Below, in pieces: positions 2,363 to 62,677 of a stretch of 64,000 bases of DNA (its first letter is position 1; each line of letters begins with the position of its first letter). The translations under genes and the position numbers were made by a program. The notes beneath the pieces are model-generated. The model was not told where the DNA came from. It saw only the letters and a program-made list of their open reading frames with translations, and did not search any database. The stretch is from contig OZ024744.1 of assembly GCA_964016885.1 (NCBI GenBank), positions 9,982,001 to 10,046,000 on the forward strand, in the 5' to 3' direction. This DNA is from Eledone cirrhosa (lineage: Eukaryota).

Positions 2363-5300
2363 TTCGTTTCTGAATTTGTTTAGCAAGATTCTTTATCTGA
2401 AATCGTGTGTTGAAACCGATATTGTTATACTTTGGGAGGGTCATGTTGCCAATAAGAAACACACGCACCAGTAGCTTTCACTTCAATTTATTATAATAAA
2501 TTTATAAATTTAGGAATCTATAAATTTCTGGTTGGTTGGTTGGTTCCACAACCAGATAGTTGTTTATATATTGTCAAAGTTCTTTCGTCACACATTCTGT
2601 GACCTCTTCAGTGACTGGGGATTCTTTTCTTTGTTTTTGTGCTTCTCCTTTGTTCTGTCCTACGCCATTTTGTTTCTGTGTGTGTGTTGTGTGCTCAGTC
2701 TGTGCATGCGCCACATCCGGGTGTCTGTGTGTTTATGTTCATTTATTTATTTGTTTATTTATATGTTACTGGTTGGTTGTTTGTTCTATGTGTGTGTGTG
2801 TTTTCATTTTGTCCTTAATTGTAAGTTGTGATGTTGCTGTTCCACTCATGTTTTCTATTTAATTTTGGTTGTAATTCTTTTATTTTTATTGCCTCTGTGA
2901 TTTGTCTAAACATTGCGTCTTTTCTGTGTGTAGATTCTATTTTTATTTCTATGTTCTCTAATTTACCCTTGTGTTCTATTTTAGCATGTTGGTAGAGTAC
3001 AGATGATTCTTTACTATCTTGAAGGTCTCGCCAGTGTTCATTTATCCGTTCCCCTACACTACGAGCTGTCTCACCTATGTACACTATATTTTTGTCTCTA
3101 CATTGTCCTTCAGTACATCTTATGCTATACACTACATTTCTAGTTTTACAGTTAATATGGGGGCTTATTTTACAGATTATACATTTCTTATCTATACATG
3201 GGGGTCTTTGAAAAGGGTATGTCTTGCTAATAAGTGTTTTTACGGAGGTACCTGGTCTTTCTACTATCTTAATATTGAGTTTACGTTTATCTAGGGCCCT
3301 TCTAAATTTGTAAGCTAATTCACCTCTAGGGGTTGTATCGATGAACATTACACTCTGGTATTTATTGCTATCATACCATGAGTTTATTCTATTAGCCTTA
3401 TTCCTAGTTCTTTCTATTCTATTCCAAAATTTGCTCCTATACAAGGGGCAGGTCCCATTTATGTCGTTATTTACCATTTTTTCCCATTTGGTTCTGGCTC
3501 CTCTATACACTCTGATTTTGTCTCTCTGATTGTAACCAGAGAACTGCATACGGTGGATGAAGTGTTATATGTGTCTCTCTAGTTCTTCGGGGTTGCACAT
3601 GCGGGACACGTTTCTCATCACCCGTACCAAATCCGCAATCAGTATGTTGATTTTGGTATGGTCCGAAACAGCTGAGTTTCGGTGGATCAGATATTTGGAA
3701 GTCATGGGTTTGGCATAATGGAAATGGAGGATTTGTTTTTTGTTATTAATGGTATCTAACCAGAGCTCTGTGTCTAGTACAGGTAATCCATGGTTGGGGT
3801 GTTTACTTGGGTAGTCTATAGTAACTCTGGTGGATGGACTTAGCTATTTGGTGGATGCTTTCCATTGTGTTTTTCTCTAGTTCCTGACTGTTCTCTAGTG
3901 AGGGTGTCTTAACTACGATGTTTATATCATCAACGTAGCGGGAGTACATTATCAGGGTTAAGGGATCTTCTAATTGTTCTTTAAGTTTAAGCTTAAGTCT
4001 ACTGTCGCACCATACCATGAATAAGTTAGCTATGTCGCCTGCAATGCTAACACCAATGGCTGCTCCTTCCTCTTGGGCATATGTTTTTCCATTAAATTTG
4101 AACATATGTTCCTTAAGGGTTAATTTTATGCTGGCCCCTACCGCATGTGCAATCATTTTCTTCAGTTCATCGTGGTTTTCGGGTGTCCGTATGGCTCTGG
4201 TCCACCCGTTCCATCTATCTGTGTGGGTTTTCTTGGCCATTGAGGTAATGGTAGGTGGTCTGCCTCTTGCTGGTCTTGTAGGGCACAGGTTGCTAAGGTC
4301 ATATGTGTCTAGGTAATTATTACTATAGGTAAGTTTAAGTAGGAGTCCCAGCTCACTGGTATCAATCCCACGGAACTCAACATTGCTCTCACTAATCATT
4401 TCTACCCATTTCTCCACAGCAAAATCCACGTCAATAGATGGATACAGGGACACAACATCCATACTACCTATTATGCAGTTTGTTAGGTCCCTAGATCGGT
4501 TACTCTCGCCGATTCTGCTGAGGAGGTCCTCCGTGCTGTCACATACATCTGGGGACATTTCAATGATGGGGCGTATGATCAGGGAGAGGAAGTAGGACAG
4601 TCTGTAGTTACTAGCAATGTTAGCTCCACAGACTTGCCGTGTTGGTGGTCCCGTGACAGGGTCACTGCCCGTTTTATGGTCTTTTCGAAGCCCATACAAT
4701 GCTGGCACGTCATTGTTTCAGGCCTGGAAGTTGTTGGCAGTCCTTTTGTTGGGCTGCATTATATTCGTCCACATCACGATATGGGCATTGAGGGCTTTTT
4801 CTCTATCCTCATGCTCCTGTGGTGTTACCTCTCTTGTGTTAGTGATGTGGGGTTGCATTGCCTGGATGTAGTTTGGCAGGCTGTCAACCGACATTCTGCC
4901 AGACTTGTCTGTTGGAAAGCATGCTATCTCTCCATTACGCGAGCGCTGCATGAGCTTACGCAAGCCATTTGCAGATTTTTCTCCCAGTTGCTGGGCCTCC
5001 ATTCTATTATGCTTCTTGCTATACTGTTCTATAATATTTCTAAGTTCGGATCTAGCTATACTAAATTGTGCTTCTGTTTGTTCATCGACCTGCGACGGCA
5101 GTTGTGTGCGTTTGTTAAAAGGTAAAGTCGTGGTGTGGACTCGTCGCAGGTCGAACGACTTATCGGAGGGATTATAAAAAGTAGAGTTCCAGGCTGCTGC
5201 TTTATGTGTACTAGTGCTATTGTTATTGTTAGTTGTGTTGTTTCTATTTCTATTTCCACTAACAGCCTCGTGGTTGTTTCTATGTCTCTCATAATTACTC

Positions 5301-6342: not shown

Positions 6343-7335
6343 TGGAGAAGAAGTTTATGAAACGGTAATGCGGGTATAAAGAATTTATTAGGTAACAATT
6401 GTTTCTATAGTGTATGGGTTACCTATACCTCGCTATTTGAATAATATAAAAATATTATCATAAACCGAAGGTACACTGCAAGCAAACACACCATGTCGTC
6501 AGACCTTTGTATTGGAATGATATGAAAATATTTTATACACTAGATAAAAGAGAAAGAAGGAGGTAGGAAGAGAAGGGGCAGAGGGAAGTGAGTAAGGGGG
6601 AGGGAGTCCTAGGATTTAAGACTGTCAGACTAGTAGAGATTGTAAGGAGAGAATGTTTTGGCAGCAGTTAGCTTAATGAGGCGTGTTAGGGTTGGCGGGG
6701 GAAGTAAATTCTTCTAGTGGTGTTGTTCGGACAAAATTTAGTTAAAGGGGTCAAAATCGTACAGAGTTACAGACAAGTTATTGGGGCTATTATGGTAGCA
6801 GGTTATTTCTAAAGGGGTCCAGAAAACAGTGTTTAGTACTATTATTATAGAAAGCCATATCTTGTGTATAAACATATAAAACAGAAATTTGCAAACGGTG
6901 GTGTAAAAAGGTAACATTACATGCATTTAAAAAAAGAAAAAGTCGTTTTCAAACGATGGTTACAGTACAGTGAACGTTCAATTTTGCTGTTCAAAAGTTT
7001 GTTTACCGACGTTAAAATGCAGTATATCTCCATATTGCATAATTTACAGAATCGATGATTTTGCTTATATGGAGGCGCAGCTTCAATAATTTGCCAATCA
7101 AGGGAGAATGCTTGATTGTTCCTCCGGAGCTGCCAGGGTTGTTACGGAGCGCATTTTCTCGTGCCTGATCGAAGATCGATGTTGGTATAGGCAAGCTTTG
7201 ATAGAAGTTGCGGTACATCCGATGTAATACCATTTGTTGGTTTCGGAATTTATTGTACATCGGTAGACAATATTGCGTGCTAGGCACTGGTTATTCAGTG
7301 GGCACATAACTGGTTTGGTGCAGTTACAATTAAAT
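6343..7335 (-). mobile_element. 5'-truncated Penelope-like element (Hydra-like), GIY-YIG remnant plus 3' UTR
   Basis: Minus-strand NCNCTKPVMCPLNNQCLARNIVYRC...YIGCTA at ~7200-7335; hammerhead near the 3' end. Confidence 0.8.
6390..6506 (-). ncRNA. Type I hammerhead motif with ~90-nt stem II
   Basis: AGGU-CUGACGA-[CAUGGUGUGU...AUACACUAUA]-GAAA-CAAUUG-UU-ACCU; palindromic stem III ACAAUUGU. Confidence 0.8.
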
Positions 7336-18515: not shown

Positions 18516-19587
18516 TAATAATAATAAATTTGGAGACTAAAATCCAAAGAGGGCTCGATAAGGATAAATATATATCAAATATATAAGAACCGTAGAGCAA
18601 ATATTTATTAAAATAACAGATTAAAGTTTAAGCAAAGAATCGCTGCTTTCACCCTTAACGGGATCTTCTGAAACTAACAAAGTCAATCTGTAAACACAGA
18701 ACTGGATATTTCGAAAAACGTTGCAACCGGAGGAAGACAGGAAGACGATACTTTGGTTCGTGGAAACGTTCGCTGGCTATGCAAATAAGTAAAGGTATAA
18801 ACAAAACATATACTTAGCTCCCACATCGAGACGTAAAATATCCACGTATAGATCGTACTATCCGTTAGGGTATAACGTGGGGCTGTAATACAGGAAAGTT
18901 TTGTGCAATTTATGTTTACAAGCCGAAATTGCCTCAGATTTTTTGTTTAAGATGTGGTCTGTGGCGTAGAGTATTTCCAGGGCCTCAGCGGCGCAGAGGT
19001 CACATGGTCTTTTATTTCCGTTATACGATCTAGCCCTAGCTAGGATCTCCCAGTGTAACTTATATTGGGTGTGGTTGTCTTTTAGACTCCAGATATAAGC
19101 TGAAAGTGACGTCATATTCCTTCTTAGAGGGTAACGAAAAGAATGGGTATGCATGTAAAGACGCTGCTTGAATATATTGGCGGTTAACCCTATGTAGGCC
19201 CTACGGGACGTGGGTGTTACAACCTTACATTTGTAGACAATGTTACTAGAGAGGAATTTCCCGGATAGGGGGCAATCAACCCGATTCCTACAATTACAGT
19301 TAGTACTAACTACAGGGTTGCACGTGTTCCTACGATCTATACGTGGATATTTTACGTCTCGATGTGGGAGCTAAGTATATGTTTTGTTTATACCTTTACT
19401 TATTTGCATAGCCAGAGAACGTTTCCACGAACCAAAGTATCGTCTTCCTGTCTTCCTCTGGTTGCAACGTTTTTTGAAATATCCAGTTCTGCGTTTACAG
19501 ATTGACTTTGTTAGTTTCAGAAGATCCCGTTAAGGGTGAAAGCAGCGATTCTTTGCGTAAACTTTAATCTGTTATTTTAATAAATAT
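18516..19587 (-). mobile_element. 5'-truncated Hydra-like PLE with inverted pLTR
   Basis: NCNCRNRVDCPL...IVYKC...YIGLT and ORF 18858-19154; ~18600-18860 is inverted at ~19327-19587. Confidence 0.85.
18625..18675 (-). ncRNA. Hammerhead-like motif with CAGAAGA core (inverted copy at 19513-19563)
   Basis: AGUUU-CAGAAGA-U-CCC(GUUAA)GGG-U-GAAA-GCA(...)UGC-UU-AAACU. Confidence 0.55.
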
Positions 19588-24003: not shown

Positions 24004-25003
24004 ATTTACAGTTAATATGGGGGCTTAATTTACAGGTTATACATTTCTTATCTATACATGAGGGTCTTTGAAAAGGGTATGTCTTGCTAATAAGTGTTTT
24101 TATGGAGGTACCAGGTACCTCCATAAAAACACTTATTAGCAAGACATACCCTTTTCAAAGATCCCCCTGTATAGATAAGAAATGTATAACCTGTAAATTA
24201 AGCCCCCATATTAACTGTAAAACTAGAAATGTAGTATATAGCATAAGATGTACTGAAGGACAATGTAGAGACAAAAATATAGTGTACATAGGTGAGACAG
24301 CTCGTAGTGTAGGGGAACGGATAAATGAACACTGGCGAGACCTTCAAGATAGTAAGGAATCATCTGTACTCTACCAACATGCTAAAATAGAACATAAGGG
24401 TAAATTAGAGAACATAGAAATAAAAATAGAATCTACACACAGAAAAGACGCAATGTTTAGACAAATTACAGAGGCAATAAACATAAAAGAATTACAACCA
24501 AAATTAAATAGAAAACATGAGTTGAACAGCAACATCACAACTTACAATTAAGGACAAAATGAAAACACACACGCACATAGAACAAACAACCAACCTGTAA
24601 CATGTAAATAAACAAATAAATAAACGAATATAAACACACACAGACACCCGGATGTGGCGCATGCGCAGACTGAGCACACAACACACACACAGAAACAAGA
24701 TGGTGTAGGACAGAACAAAGGAGAGGCACAAAAACAAAAAAAAGAATCCCAAGTCACTGAAGAGGTCACAGAATATGTGACGAAAGAACTTTGACAATAT
24801 ATAAACAACCATCTGGTTGTGGAACCAACCACCCGGAAATTTATAAATTCCTAAATTTATAAATTTATTATAATAAATTGAAGTGAAAGCAACTGGTGCG
24901 TATGTTTCTTATTGGCAACATGACCCTCCCAAAGTATAACAATATCGGTTTCAACACACGTTTTCAGGTAAAGAATCTTGCTAAAGAAATTCAGAAACGA
25001 AAT
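24004..25003 (+). mobile_element. N1 PLE 3' part with a 5' fold-back
   Basis: GIY-YIG ORF 24084-24551; palindrome centred on GGTACCAGGTACC (24107-24119); complete pLTR tail. Confidence 0.9.
24753..24795 (+). ncRNA. Minimal hammerhead motif (N1)
   Basis: GUCA-CUGAAGA-G-GUCACA(GAAUA)UGUGAC-GAAA-G(AA)C-UU-UGAC. Confidence 0.75.
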
Positions 25004-27113: not shown

Positions 27114-27920
<807 letters not shown>

Positions 27921-28378
27921 TACATACATACACATACATAAATGCATACATATGCATGTACAAAATTAGAAAAATATACACACACCTCTACATATTCACA
28001 CACGCAAATAAATATAAGAGAAAATATATATAAAATAAAATAATAAAAACTATTATACAGTTGACAGCGATACAGGCAACGAATAAATGAACAAACACGC
28101 GTGGTAAGTAATACACACAAATGCACGTACACATACATACGTAAAAATAAATACACACACTCTCACACATAAATATACATATAAAAATACATAAAAACAT
28201 ACATACGCATACACAAATACATACATACACATATACATACACAGATATATATATATATATATATATAAATACACATACACATACACACATATATATATAT
28301 ACACACACAAATACATACATAGCTATACAATTACACACATACAAATATGTACATATCACAAACACGTACAACCAAATA

Positions 28379-28470: not shown

Positions 28471-29408
28471 AAGAAAAAGAGATGAAATCGAAAATGCAAC
28501 TGGAGTCTTATTTTTTTTTTTTTTTTTAAATATTTATATTTATTTGGTTCCTTTACCGGTTTCGCAGTTCTTCTGCTTTTCAAAAGTAGAGTTGAGATGG
28601 AGGGTCTGTGGTTTTTCTCACATCTGGTTGGTCTCTGAATGTTACTTGTTTTATATGGAAAAAGTGGCTCGAAATGCCAGGTTTTTCGAGAAGTAATTTG
28701 ATTGGTTTGTCAATAATTATAATAAATTTCGCGCCAGTTCGCGTTACAATAGTTCTTCAAATAAGAGGGGGGGGGTTGTCACAGGTTGTTTTTTCATATA
28801 TGAGTGTTTGAATTTCTTTTTACTTGAAAAAAGGAGGCTCACGAAGGCTTTTTTTTGGTTGGTTATAAATGAAATTATGGCTGTCACGTGAACAAATTTT
28901 CATTAAATTTTTGTGCCCTTATTTGGAAATAATTTCATAATTTCATTTATAACCAACCAAAAAAAAGCCTTCGTGAGCCTCCCTTTTTCAAGTAAAAAGA
29001 AATTCAAACACTCATATATGAAAAAACAACCTGTGACAACCCCCCCCCTCTTATTTGAGGAACTATCGTAACGCGAACTGGCGCGAAATTTATTATAATT
29101 ATTGACAAACCAATCAAATTACTTCTCGAAACACCTGGCATTTCGAGCCACTTTTTCCATATAAAACAAGTAACATTCAGAGACCAACCAGATGTGAGAA
29201 AAACCACAGACCCTCCATCTCAACTCACCTTTTGAAAAGCAGAAGAACTGCGAAACCGGTAAAGGAACCAAATAAATATATATATTTAAAAAAAAAAAAA
29301 AATAAGACTCGTTACATTTTCGATTTCATCTCTTTTTCTTTATACTTTCACTCGTGTAGGACACCTCGGTTATTTTTCATTTTGTAAAAAAAACCTCACT
29401 TTCTAATA
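28468..29408. mobile_element. Large fold-back PLE-type terminal unit (~410-nt arms plus tail)
   Basis: ~28470-28879 inverted at ~28936-29340; unpaired tail 29341-29408; hammerhead motifs at 28550-28586 (-) and 29228-29265 (+). Confidence 0.75.
29228..29265 (+). ncRNA. Minimal hammerhead motif with UUGAAAA core
   Basis: Identical to 21339-21376. Confidence 0.75.
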
Positions 29409-29595: not shown

Positions 29596-29768
29596 TTTCT
29601 GAATTTGTTTAGCAAGATTCTTTATCTGAAATCGTGTGTTGAAACCGATATTGTTATACTTTGGGAGGGTCATGTTGCCAATAAGAAACACACGCACCAG
29701 TTGTTTTCACGTGAAAGCAGCTGGTGCGTGTGTTTCTTATTGGCAAATGACCCTCCCAAAGTATAACA

Positions 29769-30639: not shown

Positions 30640-30818
30640 TTCAATAAACAGACCAGGATTTTTTCATTCTGATGATTGAAAGCAACATTTTTTGCTTTTA
30701 AGAAACCACTGGTAAATGGAATAATTGCCTTATGTTGTTTATTACATAACTATTAAGCTCTGTTACCTACATAGAGCACTCTTTTTTCCTGGACTTTTCC
30801 GACGGAATTACTTCATTT
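30640..30818 (+). mobile_element. Isolated PLE 3' end (family of 8937-10025)
   Basis: Matches 9921-10025 and continues into the tail that appears inverted at 8937. Confidence 0.75.
30662..30721 (+). ncRNA. Type I hammerhead motif, canonical core
   Basis: UUUCAUU-CUGAUGA-UUGAAAGCAA(CAUUUU)UUGCUUUUAA-GAAA-CC(ACU)GG-UA-AAUGGAA. Confidence 0.85.
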
Positions 30819-31117: not shown

Positions 31118-31166
<49 letters not shown>

Positions 31167-31272
31167 GTATATATGTATATATATATGTATATTTATATAT
31201 ACATATATATATATATAAAATATTAAAAAAATAATGAATAAACAAAGAAACAGTTCCTTATATTAGAAAAAT

Positions 31273-31414
31273 TCATTATTTTACGATCGTTTCTAGGATA
31301 TATATGTGTTAGAGTTGGTATTCATATTCTATAGATCTATGTACAATACTTATACAAACTATCAAAGGGAATATACATACCTTCACATATATATGCTGTC
31401 TTCAGAAATAATGA
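31273..31414 (-). ncRNA. Type I hammerhead motif with 105-nt stem II
   Basis: UCAUUAUUU-CUGAAGA-[CAGCAUAUAUAUGUG...CACAUAUAUAUCCUA]-GAAA-CGAUCG-UA-AAAUAAUGA; perfect 9-bp stem I. Confidence 0.88.
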
Positions 31415-32275
31415 TACTTGTTTATTGATAAGAACAAAGATTCAATACAATAGGTCTGTTTGGGAACAGGTTTTGAATTGACCAATCAGGAGATAGTGAG
31501 GGTCAAGATAGTGATATAGAATTAGGAGAACCTTAAATTATGGGTAGAGGAAGGTAGATTTCAGTTTTGGATGGTAAAGAGTATTATGAATGAAGGATTA
31601 CTTTAGGGAAGAAGTAGGTCATATGTTGACCTCAGAAATAATTTTATTTGTTCATTGAATAAAACCAATAAAGATCCAATATAACAATGGATTACTTTAG
31701 GGAAGAAGTAGGTCATATGTTGACCTCAGAAATAATTTTATTTGTTCAAAGATCAAATACATTCTGTCTGTTTGGTAAGAGGTTTAGAATTAACCAATAG
31801 AAGGTTAATAATTGGCCAAATGGTAAAATAGTAGTAATTGAAACTTATTTTAGGGGTGAAACTAGGTCAGGTGGTCAGTAGAAGGTATTCAAGCAGTTGC
31901 TGTTATAAAATAGTAATGCCAATACAAATATCTAAGGTGACTAGAGTTTTAAGATAAGGATGTTAGTGAAAAAAAAAAAAAAAAGGAAAAAAAAAAAGGA
32001 AAAAAAAAAAAAAAATACATCTATGAAAAGGATATAAAATTAATTAATATAATTATATTGATAAAATTATACTAATACATATAGATATGATAAATAAGAG
32101 TTAGATGCAGTTGAAAAGTGCTGTTAAAGATGAGGGGAAATTAAAAGAATATAAGAATGATATATATATATATATACATATATGTACCTACATATATATA
32201 CATACATACACACATACACACATATATATATATATATATATACACATACATAGACATACACACACAAATATATAC

Positions 32276-32315
<40 letters not shown>

Positions 32316-32609
32316 GCAAATACACATGTACATATACATACACACACACACACACAGACATATATATATATATATATATATATATACTCATACACACACA
32401 CACACACATATACACACATATATATATATACATACATATATATATTTTTACACTCACATACATACACACATACATACATACACACCTATATACACACACA
32501 TCCACACTTACATATAATTATTGGGGGGGGGGGATTAAATTTATTAGTGGGAAATAGTAAATATATATAGGTTTCAAGGAACATAGAGTCATAACCTGAA
32601 GTTAAAGCA

Positions 32610-33125
32610 TTATATATGTTTACTTAATGGTATCAGTTTTAGGAAATGATATTTGTAAGAAGGAGAGCCAAATTATGTAGTTCATCATTAGTAGAATATT
32701 AATTATAGGTTAACTAAAATAAAAAATAGTTTATATCTAAATTTCTAAGGTGTATATTAATTAGGTTTATCATATTTAAAGCAGAATTATGTAGTTCATC
32801 AGTAGTAGAATATTAATTATAGGTTAACTAAATTAAAAATAATTACATATGTTTACTTAATGGTATCAGTTTTAGGAAATGATATTTGTAAGAAGGAAAG
32901 CCAAATTATGTAGTCCATCAGTAGTAGAATATTAATTATATGTTAACTAAATTTAAAATAGTTTATATATTAATTTCTAAAGTGTATATTAATTAGGTTT
33001 ATAATATTTAAAGCAGAATTTTGTAATTCATCTGTAGTAGAATATTAATTATAGGTTAACTAAATTAAAATTAATTTATATATTAATTTCTAAAGTGTAT
33101 ATTAATTAGGTTTATAATATTTAAA
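32610..33125. repeat. AT-rich tandem duplication (~233-nt period with sub-repeats) in the PLE 3' UTR
   Basis: ATATGTTTACTTAATGGTATCAG at ~32614 and ~32847; TAGTAGAATATTAATTATA occurs four times. Confidence 0.8.
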
Positions 33126-35474
33126 TGTTTTTCTCAGTTTATGATTACACGATATTATTAATTCCTGTCGCTTATTTAATAGGATATCCTTAGATTTCAT
33201 TATTTCGAAAAGTTCTTGGGAACACAATCTACATTCATTTCTACTATTTTGATAAGGGGTGGCCCTTTTGAGCACACTCCAGATCAGGTCAATATCTATA
33301 TTCCTCTTTCTATAATTATTAATTTTTTCAGCTAGAGATGTTGTATTAGCTAGTGCGGCATTTTTAAAACTATGTTTGTGGGTATTAAATCTTACCTTAA
33401 AATTGTTAGAAGTAGCTCCTATATATGAGTAAATAGAGTCCTTAGTGTTAACTTTACATTTATATACTATCTTATTAACAAGGCAATTTCCTTTTAATGG
33501 ACAGTTTGCCTTGTTTCTACAGTTACAACTTTTCGTGAGTCCTGTATCTGAGGAGATATTATGGTTAGTTTGATGTACTGGTGGTATACTTATGGTTTTT
33601 TTACATTTATATGCATTATAGGCACTTATATTTTGTTTTATGTTTTTGGTTGTTGAGTAGGAGAATTTAACTGTTGATCTATTTAAGATTTGATGGTATT
33701 TGTGGTTTGGCGGGAAGTTTTTCTCTAGGATATTAAAGAATTTTTTAGGTATATTATCCTTAATTTGTAAATTAAATGGAGCATTATACCAAGTAACCCG
33801 TCTATTACGGTTTCTATGTTGTTTATTGTTTTTATAGGATGCATCCTGATGTTTACTAGGAGAATTATTGTTAATGACCTCTCCACACACATTTTTAGTT
33901 AGATTTATTGATTTAGGTGTTTTAGCTTGTTTATTAGGAGTTTTATTATTAACATTTATTAGAGTTGTAGGATGAGTAGTTTTTTGAGAGTTACTATACT
34001 GTATATTAGAAGAGTTAGAGAAAATTGGTTTTATTTTGGTATTTTGGGGTATAGTGTGAGTGGCATTTAGGTGTGTACGTTTCATTTGGTTGTTTGTTGG
34101 TAATATTAGGTTGTATGTTTGTAGTATTATTGGTAGAAGGTATATATATTAATCTATTTTTGTGGCCACTTCTAGCTAGAACTTCGTTATAAAAGGGCGT
34201 ATTTTTATCAAATACATCTTGGTTAGACGAAAGGTTAGAAATTCTAAGTGATGTATTATATGCAAGGTTTTTAAGGATAGATTTAGGGTGATTAGATTGT
34301 GAGTGTATGTAGTGTAAATTTTGGTTGGGTTTATGGTAAGGCTGGTAGATACCCGTAGATAAGTCTAATGTTATATCTAGGAAATTAACTACTTTACTTG
34401 TGTTTTCAAATGTAATATCTAGACTATAATAGTCTTTAAGGAAAGTCTAATAAGCTTTTTATTTTTTTCTATCTCTGAGAGGCTAAGGTTATTGGAAAGA
34501 AGAAGACAGTCGTCACGATATAAACCACCTTTAAGGTGGGGAAAGGAAGCATTTATGTTAAAAAGAAGAAAGAGGCCCACAAGATCAGTAATTTGGGCAG
34601 AATCGCTTGAGCCCATAGTAATATCAAATAGATTACTATATGTGTTTCTGGTCCAGTATTCATTCTGAAATTCCAGTAGTGTTAGTCTAGCATGTGTAAT
34701 AATATTAATGTCATCCAAAGTTAAGTTAGATCTAATTTTAGCAAATATCAAGGCTTTGTTCAGGAGTATAGGTGATATAGAAGAATAATAATTATCTATA
34801 TCAAATTGTAGAAATGAAGCAGAGGATTTATATCTAATATTATTAAACCAGTTAATTACCTGGGATGTGTTTTCCCAGAGTGGTAAATTAACATGTTTTC
34901 TTATTTGTGGGATGACTCTATCTAAAATTTTTTTACTAATGATTCCAATATCAGATTTGGAAGGGCATATAAGTCTTATAGAAGGATTAGAGTTAAAGTT
35001 AGATTTATGATCTTTCAGGTTGAAGTGTGGTCTTTTCAATGCCAAAGGTTCAGTTCTATCTTCAATATTAAGTCTATTCACTATGTTGTGTGTTTTGTTG
35101 TTGATGTTGGTAAGTGACGCATTATTTGTTTTTCTATAATTTTTCCTGAGTTCTTTATATATGAACTCATTGTAATTTTCAATATCCATGTGATACAGAT
35201 TTCCAGTTTTGTCCGAGTGGACATGGATTTTTTTAGATTTTTTTAGGTCCAATAGGGTAGAATCAAGGTCCTTTTGAAAGTTAGATTTATACCTCTTAAA
35301 TTTGAGGTGTTTGATTAAATTAAAAAGGTCTTTCTCAAAGTTTTCAAGTAAAGAGTTGTGTGGTGGATTTTTATGTATATATATATATGTATATATATGT
35401 ATATATATATATGTATATATATGTATATATATGTATGTATATATATATATGTATATATATATATGTATATATAT

Positions 35475-36192: not shown

Positions 36193-39167
36193 GTATTAAT
36201 AGTACTATTTATGGTTATGAAAATACAAAAACCTTTAGCAGTTATATGTATTTTTTATACAAACCCTAAATAGTGGTAGGCAGTAATGTATTACTAGCTT
36301 ATTACCAGTAAGTTAAGTAGCTCAATGTAAAAACATCAGATGAATTACAGAGCAGTTATATGAAATGTAAGAATCAAAGAACTGTTCAAAACATTATTGT
36401 GCTTACAGCTGTTTCCTCCAAACCGAGGTTTGGATTCTTCGGAGCAATTTATTAATGAATGGACAGTTATATGACCTCCTTTTCAGCCAAGAGACATACC
36501 GATACATATGCAAATATTGTGGGTCAACATTCATTACAGCATTTAGAGTGGCAGTACACCCTTTGAGATTACATTCATAATAAAAGGTACAATCAAAAAT
36601 CAAAAATACAGGTTAAAATACAACATGAAGATAAGCGGTTATATAGTGCAAATGTTATATGTGTGGCAAGCACGTGCGTCTTGTTTATATAGTGTGGCAG
36701 AGAGATATGTGTGGTAGAAGCACTTAGGTAGGTAAAGAAGAGTGTTAGGTTGGTTGATCTGGTGGCAACTTCTTTATATGATTGTTATAGTCTGTGTGTG
36801 GAGAAAAGATATAAGCATTAAAAATAGTGCAAGCATTAAAAGTATTAAACATATTGGAGATGCACAGCGAAGGGATGACAAGGACCTCATGTACTTCGAC
36901 ATTTTCATGGTCAGGGGAGTGTATTTTTCGATTATATGCCCCTCACATAATCCACGGCAATTCTATATTGAGCGTTTGACAATCCAGTTAGAGAATCGTA
37001 GTCTGATGTTCTTTAGTTCAATACAGGAGGCTGTTACGTTTCGAGAAACGACATTGAATACTACCCGGAAGTTTGTGTGTGGCTAAGGGGAGTTAATGCA
37101 TCAGGGGAGGTAACTCCGGGGTTTCTATACCTAGCTATTGAAATGTCTCAATATAGACCCTAATTTCTATGGTTATGCGCAACTTCAAAAAAGTTCCTAA
37201 AGCATAAAGTGTTTTAACTATAGAGTAGTTTATTAAGTTGTGCTGAAGGTGTTCGTATTATTATGGTGAATTAACCCCCATCCTAGGGTGTCACAAATGA
37301 ATATTATAGACGATGAGCGAGGATTCTAAATTAATGATCCTTGTGGTTGTACCCTACTCAAAGGACCAGGCGCGGTGATTGCAGAATCACTTCAAGACAC
37401 AATGATCTCTGGTAAGTTCTGGGTCACCGCTTGCTACATTGGATGTCGAAAGGTAATCATCATCAGGACCGGCCAGAGGTCAATCCGCAGTCCTCATGAC
37501 CCCACTCTGACCATCAAACCATCCATATATGTACAACCCGCACGGCAGTTGCAATACATTCATTCTCTGCACTCAGCGTCCTGGTCCTACTGCTCAACAG
37601 CGTTACTAGATTAAATCGTTTTTCATCTGTCTAAGGAAGGCACTACCTCCGCACAACACCACCAAACTAATCAATTCCTGCTAAATTACCTATAGAGCGG
37701 TGTAGTGCAGTTCAAGTGGGTGGATGTTGCCACCCCTAACGTAGAGGTATAAATGGGTATTCTCCCAGCGAAGGGTTCCGGAGGGATGTCGTAGTTTGTG
37801 TTATATTAGATCAGTTAGTGTTGTGTATGTGGTATAAGGTGTGCCCCTGGTGTTAGATGCTAGATGTGGTGTTTGGTTCAAGTCCGACATTGCTATATAT
37901 TGGGCTTAAAGTTTTGGAAGGAATGTCTGAAGCGGTGCTGGCAAGTTGCAAACACCTCAGATTTTTTGTTAAGTAGGTTACGGTTGGAGAAGATAATATT
38001 GTGGGTCTCTAGTATACAGAGGTTACAAAATTTATTAGGTGGTTTGTACGAAGTCGCGCTGCCTATCACTTCCCATTTGAGTGTGTATGGTTTATTTTTA
38101 GTTTTTAGATAGTGTATGTAGCTAGATAGTGAGGTGGATAGCTAGGCTGTGCTTTTTGAACGAGTGGATGTGCGAATTATATCTGATTTTGAAGCTGTTA
38201 GAAGTGGAGCCTACATAGGTTTCTGAAGAGTTGCTAGTTGTGACGGTGCATGAGTATATGATATCCTTGGTTAGACATTTTTTATCCAAAGGGCAGGTTC
38301 TATTAGCTCTACAGTTACAATTATCCTGTGTGTTAGTCTGCAGGTTATAATGCAGTGCAGGAGTCTGGGTGGTAGCTATAGGATTTTGGACATTCGGGTT
38401 GTCAACCCCGGTGTTATTTCTTATACTAGTGTTATTTCTATTGTTACTGCCGTTACTATGGTTGCTTGCTACAGAGGTATTTATAAGGTTTGGATCCTGT
38501 TGTGATTTCGTTTGTTGGAAGTAAGAATTAATTTTATTTTTATTACTGCTAGCTATGTGGTATGCTAAGTTAGGCGTCATAGAGTATGAGATTTTAATAG
38601 TGTTTTTGTTTAAAAGGTTGTGGTATTTGTGTCCTAGAGGGAAGTTTTTATCTAGTAGTGAGAAGAAAGCCCTAGGTATGTTGGTGGAGACATTTAGGTT
38701 GAAAGGAGGGTCGAAAAATGTATTATTTCTTCTTCTATTTTTGCTTTTAGTGTTTGGTGTGTTGTTTCTTCCTACGGCACCACAGTAGTTTGCGTGGTAA
38801 TGGTTACTTCCGGTGGCACCCTCCGCTTTGGTGTACTTGTGGTTGCTATTCCTATTATTAGGTTTCCTCATGGACATGTTGTGCGAGATGATGTTGTAGC
38901 TATGTGTTTTCTTAGGTAGGAACTCAATTTCTATATTATGGCCGGATCTAGCTAATGCTTGATTGTAATATTGTGAGTTTTTGCTAAATATGTTTGCGTC
39001 ATAGGACAGGCTAGAGATTCTATTGGATACCCCCTTAGAGATAGAGTTTAATATTGATCTAGGGTGGTTAGACTTAGTATCTACGTAAATGAGTTTTTCG
39101 TTAGGCTTATGGAAAGGTGTATATATTTTTGAGTCTAGGTATAGTATGGCGTCTAGGAAGTTTACAA
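36193..39167 (-). mobile_element. 5'-truncated Hydra-like PLE (thumb + GIY-YIG, long 3' UTR)
   Basis: VNFLD..PFHKPNE..SNHP, ORF 38122-38877 ([21 protein letters not shown]) and a frameshifted C-terminus to ~37896. Confidence 0.82.
36400..36446 (-). ncRNA. Hammerhead motif with CCGAAGA core
   Basis: UGCU-CCGAAGA-A-UCCAAAC(CUCG)GUUUGGA-G-GAAA-CAGCUG-UA-AGCA. Confidence 0.7.
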
Positions 39168-39635: not shown

Positions 39636-39680
39636 AGTCATAGTCCTTTCGTCACACACTCTGTGACCTCTTCAGTGACT
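39636..39680 (-). ncRNA. Minimal hammerhead motif (N1)
   Basis: AGUCA-CUGAAGA-G-GUCACA(GAGUG)UGUGAC-GAAA-G(GA)C-UA-UGACU. Confidence 0.8.
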
Positions 39681-39957: not shown

Positions 39958-41550
39958 TTAATTGTAAGTTGTGATGTTGCTGTTCCACTCATATTTTCTA
40001 TTTAATTTTGGTTTTAATTCTTTTATGCTTACTGCCTCTGTAATTTGCCTAAACATTGCGTCTTTTCTGTGTGTGGATTCTATTTTTATTTCTATGCTCT
40101 CTAATCTACCCCTGTGTTCTATCTTAGCATGTTGGTAGAGCACAGATGATTCTTTATTATCTTGGAGGTCTCGCCAGTGTTCATTTATTCGTTCCCCTAT
40201 ACTACGAGCTGTCTCACCTATGTACACTATATTTTTGTTTCTACATTGTCCTTCAGTACATCTTATGCTATACACTACATTTCTAGTTTTACAGTGAATA
40301 TGGGGGCTTATTTTACAGGTTATACATTTCTTATCTATACATGAGGGTCTTTGGAACGGGTATGTCTTGCTAATAAGTGTTTTTACGGAGGTACCAGGTC
40401 TTTCTACTATCTTAATATTGAGATTATGTTTATTTAGGGCCCTTCTAAATTTGTAGGCTAGTTCGCCTCTAGGGGTTGTATTGATGAACATTACACTCTG
40501 GTATTTATTGCTATCATACCATGAGTTTATTCTATTGGCCTTGTTCCTAGTTCTTTCTATTCTATTCCAAAATTTGCTCCTATACAAGGGGCAGGTCCCA
40601 TTTATGTCATTATTTACCATTTTTTCCCATTTGGTTCTGGCTCCTTTATACACTCTGATTCTATCTCTCTGATTGTAGCCAGAGAACTGCATACGGTGGA
40701 TGAAGTGTTGTATGTGTCTCTCTAGTTCTTCGGGGTTGCACATGCGGGATACATTTCTCATCACCCGTACCAAATCCGCAATCAGTATGTTGATTTTGGT
40801 ATGGTCCGAAATGGCCGAGTTTCGGTGGATCAGATGTTTGGAAGTCATGGGTTTGGCATAATGGGAATGGAGGATTTGTTTTTGGTTGTTAATGGTATCT
40901 AACCAGAGCTCTGTGTCTAGTACAGGTAATCGATGGTTGGGGTGTCTACTTGGGTAGTCTATAGTAACTCTAATGCTCTGGTGGATGGAGTTTGCTATTT
41001 GCTGGATGCTTTCCATTGTGTTTTTCTCTAGTTCCTGACTGTTCTTTAGTGGGGGTGTCTTAACTACGATGTTTATATCATCTACGTAGCGGGAGTACAT
41101 TATCAGGGTTAAGCTGTCTTCTAATTGTTCATTAAGTTTTTGTTTAAGTCTACTGTCCCACCATACCATGAATAAGTTAGCTATGTCGCCTGCAATGCTA
41201 ACACCAATGGCTGCTCCTTCCTCTTGGGCATATGTTTTACCATTAAATTTGAACATATGATCCTTAAGGGTTAATTTTATGCTGGCCCCTACCGCATGTG
41301 CAATCATTTTCTTCAGTTCATCGTGGTTTTCAGGTGTCCGTATGGCTCTGGTCCACCCGTTCCATCTATCTGTGTGGGTTTTCTTGGCCATTGAGGTAAT
41401 GGTAGGTGGTCTGCCTCTTGCTGGTCTTGTAGGGCACAGGTTGCTAAGGTCATAAGTGTCTAGGTAACTATTACTATGGGTAAGCTTAAGTAGAAATCCC
41501 AGCTCACTGGTATCAATCCCACGGAACTCAACCTTGCTCTCGCTGATCAT
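39958..41550 (-). CDS. PLE RT (partial) + GIY-YIG endonuclease, 530 aa open frame
   Basis: [40 protein letters not shown]; upstream in-frame TGA near 41558 and 5' truncation. Confidence 0.8.
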   Translation of the reverse strand: MISESKVEFRGIDTSELGFLLKLTHSNSYLDTYDLSNLCPTRPARGRPPTITSMAKKTHTDRWNGWTRAIRTPENHDELKKMIAHAVGASIKLTLKDHMFKFNGKTYAQEEGAAIGVSIAGDIANLFMVWWDSRLKQKLNEQLEDSLTLIMYSRYVDDINIVVKTPPLKNSQELEKNTMESIQQIANSIHQSIRVTIDYPSRHPNHRLPVLDTELWLDTINNQKQILHSHYAKPMTSKHLIHRNSAISDHTKINILIADLVRVMRNVSRMCNPEELERHIQHFIHRMQFSGYNQRDRIRVYKGARTKWEKMVNNDINGTCPLYRSKFWNRIERTRNKANRINSWYDSNKYQSVMFINTTPRGELAYKFRRALNKHNLNIKIVERPGTSVKTLISKTYPFQRPSCIDKKCITCKISPHIHCKTRNVVYSIRCTEGQCRNKNIVYIGETARSIGERINEHWRDLQDNKESSVLYQHAKIEHRGRLESIEIKIESTHRKDAMFRQITEAVSIKELKPKLNRKYEWNSNITTYN

Positions 41551-43166
41551 TTCTACTCATTTCTCCACAGCAAAATCCACGTCAATAGATGGATACAGGG
41601 ACACAACATCCATACTGCCTATTATGCAGTTTGTTAGGTCCCCAGATCGGTTACCCGCGCCGATTCTGCTGAGGAGGTCCTCCGTGCTGTCACACACATC
41701 TGGGGACATCTCAATGATGGGGCGTATGATCAGGGAGAGGAAGTAGGACAGTCTGTAGTTACTAGCAATGTTAGCCCCACAGACTGGTCGTGTTGGTGGT
41801 CCCGTGACAGGGTCCCAGCCCGTTTTATGGTCTTTTCGAAGCCCAGAGTTACTATAGAGTTACTATAGTTACATTAGAGTTACTATAGACTACCCAAGTA
41901 GACACCCCAACCATCGATTACCTGTACTAGACACAGAGCTCTGGTTAGATACCATTAACAACCAAAAACAAATCCTCCATTCCCATTATGCCAAACCCAT
42001 GACTTCCAAACATCTGATCCACCGAAACTCGGCCATTTCGGACCATACCAAAATCAACATACTGATTGCGGATTTGGTACGGGTGATGAGAAATGTGTCC
42101 CGCATGTGCAACCCCGAAGAACTAGAGAGACACATACAACACTTCATCCACCGTATGCAGTTCTCTGGCTACAATCAGAGAGATAGAATCAGAGTGTATA
42201 AAGGAGCCAGAACCAAATGGGAAAAAATGGTAAATAATGACATAAATGGGACCTGCCCCTTGTATAGGAGCAAATTTTGGAATAGAATAGAAAGAACTAG
42301 GAACAAGGCCAATAGAATAAACTCATGGTATGATAGCAATAAATACCAGAGTGTAATGTTCATCAATACAACCCCTAGAGGCGAACTAGCCTACAAATTT
42401 AGAAGGGCCCTAAATAAACATAATCTCAATATTAAGATAGTAGAAAGACCTGGTACCTCCGTAAAAACACTTATTAGCAAGACATACCCGTTCCAAAGAC
42501 CCTCATGTATAGATAAGAAATGTATAACCTGTAAAATAAGCCCCCATATTCACTGTAAAACTAGAAATGTAGTGTATAGCATAAGATGTACTGAAGGACA
42601 ATGTAGAAACAAAAATATAGTGTACATAGGTGAGACAGCTCGTAGTATAGGGGAACGAATAAATGAACACTGGCGAGACCTCCAAGATAATAAAGAATCA
42701 TCTGTGCTCTACCAACATGCTAAGATAGAACACAGGGGTAGATTAGAGAGCATAGAAATAAAAATAGAATCCACGCACAGAAAAGACGCAATGTTTAGGC
42801 AAATTACAGAGGCAGTAAGCATAAAAGAATTAAAACCAAAATTAAATAGAAAATATGAGTGGAACAGCAACATCACAACTTACAATTAAGGACAAAATGA
42901 AAACACACACACACATAGAACAAACAACTTACAATTGAAAACACACACAAAATTAAAACACACACAGGACAAAATGAAAACACACACACACATAGAACAA
43001 ACAACCAACCAACAATAAATAAATAAACAAATAGAAAAATGAACACAAACACACACAGACACCCGGATGTGGCACATGCGCAAACTGAGCACACAACACA
43101 CACACAGAAACAAAATGGCGTAGGATAGAAGAAAGAAAAGGCACAGAAACGAAGAAAGGAATCCCC

Positions 43167-43211
43167 AGTCACTGAAGAGGTCACAGAGTGTGTGACGAAA
43201 GGACTATGACT
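43167..43211 (+). ncRNA. Minimal hammerhead motif (N1), inverted copy
   Basis: Same sequence as 39636-39680 on the plus strand. Confidence 0.8.
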
Positions 43212-47266: not shown

Positions 47267-47514
47267 TTTCGTTTCTGAATTTGTTTAGCAACATTCTTTA
47301 TCTGAAATCGTGTGTTGAAACCGATATTGTTATACTTTGGGAGGGTCATGTTGCCAATAAAAAACACACGCACCAGTTGCTTTCACTTCAATTTATTATA
47401 TATTTATAAATTTATAAATAATTTATAAATTTATAAATATATAATAAATTGAAGTGAAAGCAACTGGTGCGTGTGTTTCTTATTGGCAACATGACCCTCC
47501 CAAAGTATAACAAT
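47267..47514. mobile_element. Terminus-only N1 PLE palindrome
   Basis: Tail plus ~47326-47420 inverted at ~47420-47514. Confidence 0.82.
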
Positions 47515-47537
47515 ATATATATATACATATATACATA

Positions 47538-62069: not shown

Positions 62070-62677
62070 TAGTGAAAGAGTGAAGAATAACATGGTCAAC
62101 AGTACAAAAAGGGTTTTATTTACAGTATTAATAATTGTTTCATTGATTAGGGTGTCTAAAAATTGCTAATCACTTGAAGTTGTGTCACTCAATTTTAAAT
62201 ACAATGTATGCCTAATCAAATCATCAGAAAAACTGATTAAAATTATACACAGCGTTTGTAATATACTAGGAAAATTCAAATCACAACTTTATTACTGATG
62301 TTGTGATTTAAATTTTCCTAATATATTACAAACGCCGTGTATAATTTTAATCAGTTTTTCCAATGATTAGGCATACATTGTATTTAAAATTGAGTGACAC
62401 AACTTCAAGTGATTAGCAATTTTTAGACACCCTAATCAATGAAACAATTATTAATACTGTAAATAAAACCCTTTTTGTACTGTTGACCATGTTATTCTTC
62501 ACTCTTTCACTATTATTACTCCAAGATTAACCTGCATAGGAATACCCGAGCACTCACAAACTCGCTACCTGAGGAAACCTCTTGTTGAGTCAAACAACAC
62601 CGTACGTTAAAACTATCCACAATACAGAGTACTCACAACCTCTAACTGGATTACCTGTAACGATAATTTGTTATCCC

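What the first reader, a model, noticed from the sequence alone, without database searches (positions are those of the whole stretch)
31273..31414. Recurring class of PLE hammerheads with giant stem II and a mismatched 10.1-11.1 pair
Seen: the best example has a perfect 9-bp stem I, CUGAAGA, a 105-nt two-segment stem II, GAAA, palindromic ACGAUCGU and GUA, at the 3' end of a Hydra-like PLE. Three more motifs with dissimilar stems share the design (6390: 90 nt; 27362: 49 nt; 62123: 79 nt). The first stem II position is C-A in three of them and U-U in the fourth, and it is also mismatched at 18625 and 36400. Established: this pair is normally G-C and PLE ribozymes are typically minimal. Inference: a possibly undescribed hammerhead subclass whose long stem II serves another role (RT/EN binding, dimer scaffold or tertiary contact), with the mismatch being a feature rather than decay.
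Basis: partly seen in the sequence, partly recalled or inferred. Interest (0 to 1): 0.82.

Follow-up and report, generated by a model that had tools for sequence, protein, structure and literature searches.

The report
Long-armed hammerheads in Hydra-type retroelements
This is a hammerhead RNA motif, predicted to cut itself slowly, at the end of a Penelope-like jumping gene; its mismatched first pair is already known, while its folded arm, four times longer than in listed relatives and present in about 20,000 copies, is a real variant whose use is untested.

Summary
Confirmed: a type I hammerhead at 31414-31273 (-) with 9-bp stem I, CUGAAGA, 105-nt stem II, GAAA, palindrome ACGAUCGU and GUA site. 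It ends a Hydra-clade Penelope-like element; tandem copies show motif-816-aa ORF-motif. The motifs at 6390, 27362, 62123 and 36400 are real families; 18625 fails the core test. The mismatch is not new: U.U is in Perreault 2011, in a cleaving axolotl ribozyme (Cervera 2020) and 15 of 25 Hydra families in Craig 2021 File S2 are mismatched. It is also not tied to the long arm: long-stem patterns give C.A 14,125, U.U 4,026 and G-C 1,439 genome matches, and single lineages switch between these. What remains is the 41-126-nt stem II (listed Hydra maximum 26), with compensatory changes out to the distal hairpin; I did not find it in print. Most likely a slow, dimer-boosted ribozyme with a self-folding extension; a protein-sensing arm or hidden intron is not excluded. 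Cleavage and expression are untested. This scan noted long-armed octopus hammerheads before on other DNA.

The parts
31273..31414 (-). Type I hammerhead motif, family A (105-nt stem II, C10.1.A11.1)
   Evidence: 40 top matches at 96-100% identity; 10,779 exact genome matches to the 3' half
31406..31414 (-). Stem I 5' strand; 5'-end hot spot of short copies (possible transcription start)
   Evidence: 11 of 30 position-sampled copies begin within 8 nt upstream of C3
31399..31405 (-). Core C3-A9, CUGAAGA
31294..31398 (-). Stem II region: C.A, two pairs, C.C, 11-bp helix, 13-bp helix (one pair broken in this copy at 31322), two short distal helices
31282..31293 (-). G12-A13-A14, palindromic stem III ACGAUCGU, predicted cut after A17 at 31282
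   Evidence: palindrome duplex -10 kcal/mol, monomer stem III pair probability about 0.05
31273..31281 (-). Stem I 3' strand
31215..31272 (-). Element 3' end up to the (TA)n target; other copies carry a further ~110-nt tail that is the 5' UTR of the next tandem unit
31421..31486 (-). Conserved reverse CCAAT box (31486-31478) and TCAATAAA (31428-31421): candidate promoter or poly(A) signal
   Evidence: kept in all six subfamily copies aligned (coordinates); function inferred
31415..33101 (-). 1.7-kb 3' UTR with internal repeats and (TA)n tracts
   Evidence: collinear in many other copies; endonuclease end 1,683-1,756 nt upstream of the motif
33102..35374 (-). 5'-truncated, frameshifted RT plus GIY-YIG-type ORF of the Hydra-clade element
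   Evidence: 92-97% identical to the intact 816-aa ORF of L032
6390..6506 (-). Family C hammerhead (90-nt stem II, C.A); Hydra-type endonuclease about 423 nt upstream in other copies
27362..27443 (-). Family B hammerhead (49-nt stem II, C.A), part of a non-coding 522-558-bp tandem repeat (retrozyme-like)
62123..62235 (-). Family D hammerhead (79-nt stem II, U.U), damaged stem III in this copy
36400..36446 (-). Short-stem hammerhead (20 nt, A.G, U4C core), very young family
30662..30721 (+).

Best explanation
This is a type I hammerhead motif in the terminal repeat of a Hydra-clade Penelope-like retrotransposon, predicted to cut its RNA after GUA (31282) slowly alone and faster as a dimer, and its 105-nt stem II is likely a lineage-specific extension kept because it folds on itself and so leaves the core assembled. 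Shown: the motif, its place between tandem ORFs, the fold with compensatory changes, and the free exchange of the first pair. Inferred: the element is transcribed; two motifs of a tandem transcript pair their ACGAUCGU palindromes into an 8-bp stem III and cut out unit-length RNA; the mismatch and the two-pair stem III keep single motifs slow, so that uncut RNA, which spans the motif and the 3' tail, survives as the template for copying. The relaxed first pair is a general Hydra-clade trait, independent of arm length.
For: Intact core and stems; hammerhead fold 1.7 kcal/mol above the minimum, stem III weak as monomer, palindrome duplex -10 kcal/mol. Motif-ORF-motif units 4,616 and 4,687 bp apart; ORF has RWR, DKT, CxCx5C, CxxC-E, N-CxH as Craig 2021 lists for Hydra. 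Covariation: B family 12 of 25 pairs change on both sides, 7 of 9 in the distal helix; A family 5 of 45, 96% of cells paired. Stem II interiors differ in length (41-126 nt), sequence and shape (rod, two helices, multi-branch) between families, as expected if fold and not one ligand matters. First pair switches within lineages. Closest tested analogue, axolotl HHR_Amex2 (2-bp helix III, U.U at helix II base), cuts 22% in 1 h alone and much more as a dimer. In a lizard PLE uncut RNA was the main insertion substrate; genomic copies here span the cut site.
Against: No cleavage or RNA data: activity of a C.A pair is untested here, and Perreault 2011 says U.U is the best tolerated mispair. Distal covariation, a UUCG-type loop in most B rows and the invariant GTATGT strand and C.C pair in family A are more than closing stem II needs. 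Mismatch is commoner in long-stem clusters (11 of 13) than short ones (7 of 18; Fisher p 0.025, clusters not independent). A-family covariation is modest (25 of 500 shuffles reach 5 pairs) and related rows inflate these tests.
Confidence: 0.55

Rival explanations
1. Natural allosteric hammerhead: the long arm is a binding site for the element's RT/EN protein (or a host protein), and the weak base (C.A, two pairs, C.C) passes binding on to the core, so cutting happens only in the assembled particle.
For: Weak base under a very stable distal domain, with C.C invariant in 15 of 15 A rows; distal covariation; the lizard PAc hammerhead cuts only with ORF protein added; same layout as engineered aptazymes (recalled; only a search listing seen).
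Against: Unrelated arms in different families, G-C first pairs on equally long arms; B family has no ORF of its own in any locus examined; short-arm families thrive in the same genome.
Confidence: 0.2
2. In some families stem II hides a spliceosomal intron whose acceptor is A11.1-G12; spliced RNA loses the hairpin for translation and unspliced RNA is the template.
For: Family A: G|GTATGT at 31380, CTCTAAC at 31314, CCTAG|A at 31293; GTATGT invariant in 15 of 15 rows while its partner strand varies, position 11.2 always a pyrimidine. PLEs are known to keep 5' UTR introns.
Against: U.U, A.G and G-C families have no AG there; several C.A families end GAG or AAG; B lacks a usable donor; the branch-like motif is lost in the sister subfamilies.
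Confidence: 0.1
3. The internal loop 4-7 bp out on stem II stands in for loop 2 and docks on stem I, giving a fast canonical-type hammerhead; the rest is a scaffold.
For: B, G and F families have an internal loop after 4-7 bp, about where loop 2 of canonical motifs lies.
Against: Family A has an unbroken 9-bp stem I with no bulge and 11 further pairs at that place; no loop-stem I covariation was tested or seen.
Confidence: 0.08
4. The motif no longer cuts; core and hairpin are kept as a structure for the protein, for RNA stability or for cDNA fold-back during insertion.
For: Copies span the cut site; many are head-to-head fold-backs; catalysis was dispensable for PAc insertion in vitro.
Against: All catalytic nucleotides and NUH are kept across unrelated families.
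Confidence: 0.07

Closest known systems
Hammerheads of Hydra-clade Penelope-like elements (Craig et al. 2021, PMC8557442, section 11 and supplementary Files S1, S2 read)
   Same: Type I, near the 3' end, (TA)n target, short palindromic stem III; 15 of 25 listed families have a mismatched first stem II position (14 U.U, 1 U.C; my count); C.A is listed for PLE-X1_cBra.
   Different: Listed Hydra stem II regions are at most 26 nt (longest in that file about 54 nt, PLE-X1_sMoe); here 41-126 nt with several helices. C.A is not listed for a Hydra family. The family differs from Hydra-1_oBim.
Axolotl retrozyme hammerhead HHR_Amex2 (Cervera and de la Pena 2020, PMC7229834, sections 14 and 15 read)
   Same: Two-pair helix III with tetraloop, mismatch at the base of helix II, slow alone and faster as a dimer; family B here also forms tandem non-coding repeats.
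   Different: U.U rather than C.A; canonical loop contacts described there; repeats of 330-350 bp against 522-558 bp.
Minimal PLE hammerheads (Cervera and de la Pena 2014, PMC4209133, parts 1-2 of text and parts 1-2 of supplement read)
   Same: In PLE terminal repeats, palindromic stem III, proposed dimer cleavage; Fig. S3 shows a Hydra example with U.U.
   Different: Consensus has one extra nucleotide after A9 and G10.1-C11.1, helix II up to 7-8 bp; the 18-nt motifs of the other PLE in this window fit that form, the motif studied here does not.
Natural U10.1-U11.1 hammerheads (Perreault et al. 2011, PMC3088659, passages read)
   Same: Stem II starting with a mismatch in nature.
   Different: Those stems II are very short and weak; U.U only.

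Membership tests
Type I hammerhead ribozyme | Core CUGANGA, GAAA and NUH site | tested here: met
Type I hammerhead ribozyme | Three helices with open stem I | tested here: met
   stem III only 2 bp as monomer
Type I hammerhead ribozyme | G10.1-C11.1 pair (usual, not obligatory) | tested here: not met
   C.A; natural mismatched exceptions
Type I hammerhead ribozyme | Self-cleavage at NUH | not testable with these tools
   no kinetics; no RNA reads
Rfam hammerhead models | Score against an Rfam hammerhead family | tested here: inconclusive
   none among the 150 best of 239 matches shown; 89 weaker ones not shown
Hydra-clade PLE | RWK-like and DKT motifs before the RT | tested here: met
   RWR and DKT in the L032 ORF (definition)
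Hydra-clade PLE | C-terminal GIY-YIG-type EN with CxCx5C linker, CxxC and CxH around E and N | tested here: met
   motifs read in families A and C; Pfam gave no RT or GIY-YIG hit for the two family A fragments
Hydra-clade PLE | Insertion into (TA)n, tandem terminal repeats with hammerhead | tested here: met
Hydra-clade PLE | Element shorter than about 3 kb (typical) | tested here: not met
   unit 4.6-4.7 kb because of a 1.7-kb 3' UTR
Hydra-clade PLE | RT phylogeny with reference Hydra proteins | not tested
   reference proteins were not in my working files
Minimal metazoan PLE hammerhead (2014 consensus) | Extra nucleotide after A9 then G10.1-C11.1 | tested here: not met
   symmetric C.A then A-U
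Non-LTR retrozyme (family B, 27362) | Tandem non-coding repeats each with a type I hammerhead | tested here: met
   periods 522, 542-544, 558 bp
Non-LTR retrozyme (family B, 27362) | Circular RNA expressed | not testable with these tools
   no RNA run laid on this family

The most novel reading that the evidence does not exclude
The first natural protein-switched hammerhead: a long structured stem II that binds the retroelement's own RT/endonuclease and, through a deliberately weak base (C.A, two pairs, C.C), turns self-cleavage on only inside the assembled retrotransposition particle.
Probability: 0.17. Interest if true: 0.82.

Novelty: new variant of a known kind. Interest (0 to 1): 0.42.

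Why it matters
What hammerheads do in Penelope-like elements is still open. This genome holds a natural series: arms from 13 to 126 nt and first pairs G-C, A-U, U.U, C.A, A.C in closely related families, some with an intact ORF (L032). That allows direct tests of how arm length and the first pair tune cleavage, dimer need and protein help. It also shows that size-limited descriptors can miss at least 19,590 motifs in one animal genome (sum of three patterns), so hammerhead counts are likely too low. It does not define a new ribozyme class.

Tried and rejected
Rfam scan: only microRNA-like and microsatellite matches among the 150 rows shown. RNA evidence: no RNA holder listed; four guessed-RNA runs laid 0, 0, 0 and 6 tiny contigs; X5, X6, X8 cover the whole element and look like DNA, with no joint at the predicted intron, which says nothing on expression or splicing. 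18625 as a hammerhead: rejected. Long stem plus mismatch as one subclass: rejected. Splice acceptor as the general cause of A11.1: rejected, kept only for families A and C. Tree of long-arm against short-arm families: not possible, since only A and C had a repeated link to an endonuclease; single links were neighbouring insertions. One G-C copy of the A lineage (L330) has a C-run expansion and a damaged stem III and was not counted as a switch. My first count of 5' junctions collapsed identical copies and overstated the share; one search replaces it. CCAAT box and 5' hot spot at stem I are not general: other families have other upstream sequence. Protein search gave 75 relatives, 74 unnamed, no help for clade assignment. 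Lunse et al. 2017 on PLE hammerhead variants could not be read and may describe long or mismatched stems. Literature searches for the long arm: 'hammerhead, long stem II, natural' 0 papers; 'extended stem II' 0 occurrences in the 15 listed of 132; 'hammerhead, octopus, Penelope' 4 listed, only Craig 2021 relevant by title.

Full report
1. Observation. The motif is at 31414-31273 on the minus strand as described: 9-bp stem I, CUGAAGA, 105 nt starting with C and ending with A, GAAA, the palindrome ACGAUCGU and a GUA site (A17 at 31282). Folding gives stems I and II with high probability; the hammerhead arrangement is 1.7 kcal/mol above the minimum, stem III is nearly unformed in a monomer (p about 0.05) and the palindrome makes an 8-bp duplex of -10 kcal/mol between two molecules. 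The motifs at 6390 (90 nt, C.A), 27362 (49 nt, C.A), 62123 (79 nt, U.U) and 36400 (20 nt, A.G) are real and each belongs to a repeat family. The one at 18625 fails: none of 22 copies shown has an intact core in register and I found no stem I or A15.1-U16.1 pair.

2. Context. The genome is 3.0 Gb; an octopus is my inference from size, chromosome-scale contigs and one named protein hit. Other copies are collinear with the window from 31150 to 33100, so the motif ends the 1.7-kb 3' UTR of the broken ORF at 35374-33102. L031 and L032 show motif-ORF-motif units of 4,687 and 4,616 bp; in L032 an intact 816-aa ORF starts 476 nt after C3. It has RWR, DKT, a CxCx5C linker, and CxxC and CxH around the endonuclease E and N, the marks Craig et al. 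2021 give for the Hydra clade; Pfam did not recognise the two window fragments and I made no tree with reference proteins. Family C is tied to a similar endonuclease, about 32% identical, 423 nt upstream in at least ten loci. Family B is a non-coding tandem repeat of 522-558 bp. The 3' half of the family A motif has 10,779 exact genome matches, the family B pattern 3,242.

3. The mismatch. It is a family trait: C.A in 65 of 66 unique A copies and 51 of 54 unique B copies (most loci were fetched with queries containing these positions, so this is partly built in), and invariant in 18 of 18 diverged B rows while the second pair below shows four pair types. It is already in print. Perreault 2011 reports natural U10.1-U11.1 and calls it the best tolerated mispair (passages). 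Cervera 2014 Fig. S3 has a Hydra example. Craig 2021 File S2 shows it, without comment in the passages I read, in 15 of 25 Hydra families, and C.A in PLE-X1_cBra (my count). Cervera 2020 tested an axolotl motif with U.U at the base of helix II and a two-pair helix III: 22% cut in 1 h alone, far more as a dimer. It is also not coupled to the long arm. With the same pattern (41-127 nt, 6-nt stem III insert) the genome gives C.A 14,125, U.U 4,026 and G-C 1,439 matches, controls 22, 21 and 7; these are copies, not events, and other pairs were not counted. One 48-59-nt lineage shows G-C, A-U, U.U and A.C; the 93-97-nt lineage shows G-C and U.U; the 62-nt lineage C.A and U.U. Among 31 clusters, 11 of 13 long and 7 of 18 short ones are mismatched, a tilt that shared ancestry could explain.

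4. The long arm. Listed Hydra stem II regions reach 26 nt, and the longest in that file about 54 nt. Here 13 clusters have 41-126 nt. Eight arms tested fold better than shuffles (z -2.8 to -8.9). In family B, 12 of 25 pairs change on both sides, 7 of 9 in the distal helix, with 0 of 500 shuffles reaching the covariation score and slid controls far lower. In family A, 5 of 45 pairs change on both sides (25 of 500 shuffles reach this) and 96% of cells pair; a distant subfamily has replaced the AU-rich helix with a G-rich one and kept C.A, G-C and C.C at the base. The structures were derived from these same sequences and the rows are related, so the tests lean in favour. The arms of different families share neither sequence nor shape. 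I did not find this form in the searches; Lunse 2017 was not available. Earlier notes of this scan report long-armed octopus hammerheads on other DNA.

5. Mechanism. Shown: motif, place, fold, labile first pair. Inferred: tandem transcripts bring two motifs together, the palindromes form stem III and unit-length RNA is released, possibly circularised, as proposed in 2014 and shown for retrozymes in 2020. A single motif should be slow, which suits an element whose copies span the cut site and agrees with uncut RNA being the main substrate of a lizard PLE. On this reading the arm is an extension that must fold on itself so as not to disturb the core (0.55). Rivals: a protein-sensing arm (0.2), supported by the weak conserved base and by the protein-assisted lizard ribozyme; an intron inside stem II of families A and C (0.1), with GTATGT invariant and YAG at 11.2-12, but absent from other families; loop docking (0.08); no catalysis (0.07). 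Sequencing runs gave no usable RNA data.

6. A side result. Of 30 family A copies taken in genome order, 11 (8 loci when head-to-head pairs count once) begin within 8 nt upstream of C3, 16 run further upstream and 3 are cut inside stem II. A sister subfamily is mostly a head-to-head pair joined at this point. With a conserved reverse CCAAT box and TCAATAAA upstream, this suggests an RNA 5' end at the start of stem I, by transcription start or 3'-end processing. It is untested and not shared by other families.

7. Verdict. A real hammerhead variant of a known kind. The mismatch is known and the proposed two-feature subclass does not hold; the long covarying stem II is the new part, and its function is open. 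Interest 0.42.

Noticed in passing
window 31414-31406 (-) and L210-L239: 11 of 30 position-sampled family A copies start within 8 nt upstream of C3; with a conserved reverse CCAAT box and TCAATAAA upstream this may mark the RNA 5' end.
   Followed up: partly
L180 about 1330-1750; L181-L209: Sister subfamily with 116-nt stem II occurs mostly as two inverted motif-plus-3'-end copies joined head to head in stem I, flanked by (TA)n.
   Followed up: partly
L261-L264, L252, L266; window 27340-27950 (-): Family B is a retrozyme-like tandem repeat of 522-558 bp, larger than the 150-450 bp described; most copies have a UUCG-type loop at the tip of stem II.
   Followed up: partly
window 36400-36446 (-): Very young family (41 of 42 listed matches 100% identical) with U4C core and A.G first pair, two changes expected to slow cutting.
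   Followed up: partly
window 18601-18857 and 19331-19587: Abundant PLE 3' end with a fixed non-standard CAGAAGA...GAAA hairpin that does not fit a type I hammerhead in my reading; it may be a decayed or differently wired motif.
   Followed up: partly
window 31380-31293 (-): Splice-like signals inside stem II (GTATGT, CTCTAAC, CCTAG); similar in family C.
   Followed up: partly
window 2573-2615, 24753-24795, 39636-39680, 43167-43211: A second PLE type (Pfam RVT_1 and GIY-YIG weak hits, 39958-41556) carries 18-nt hammerheads of the textbook extra-nucleotide plus G-C form.
   Followed up: partly
L032:4713-7160 (-): Intact 816-aa Hydra-type ORF between two hammerheads, with a long N/T/K-rich linker; best database relative only 39% identical over the full length.
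   Followed up: partly
window 47327-47515, 28824-28991, 29672-29748, 62230-62370: Long perfect inverted repeats made by head-to-head retroelement ends; they score on Rfam microRNA models below cut-off.
   Followed up: no
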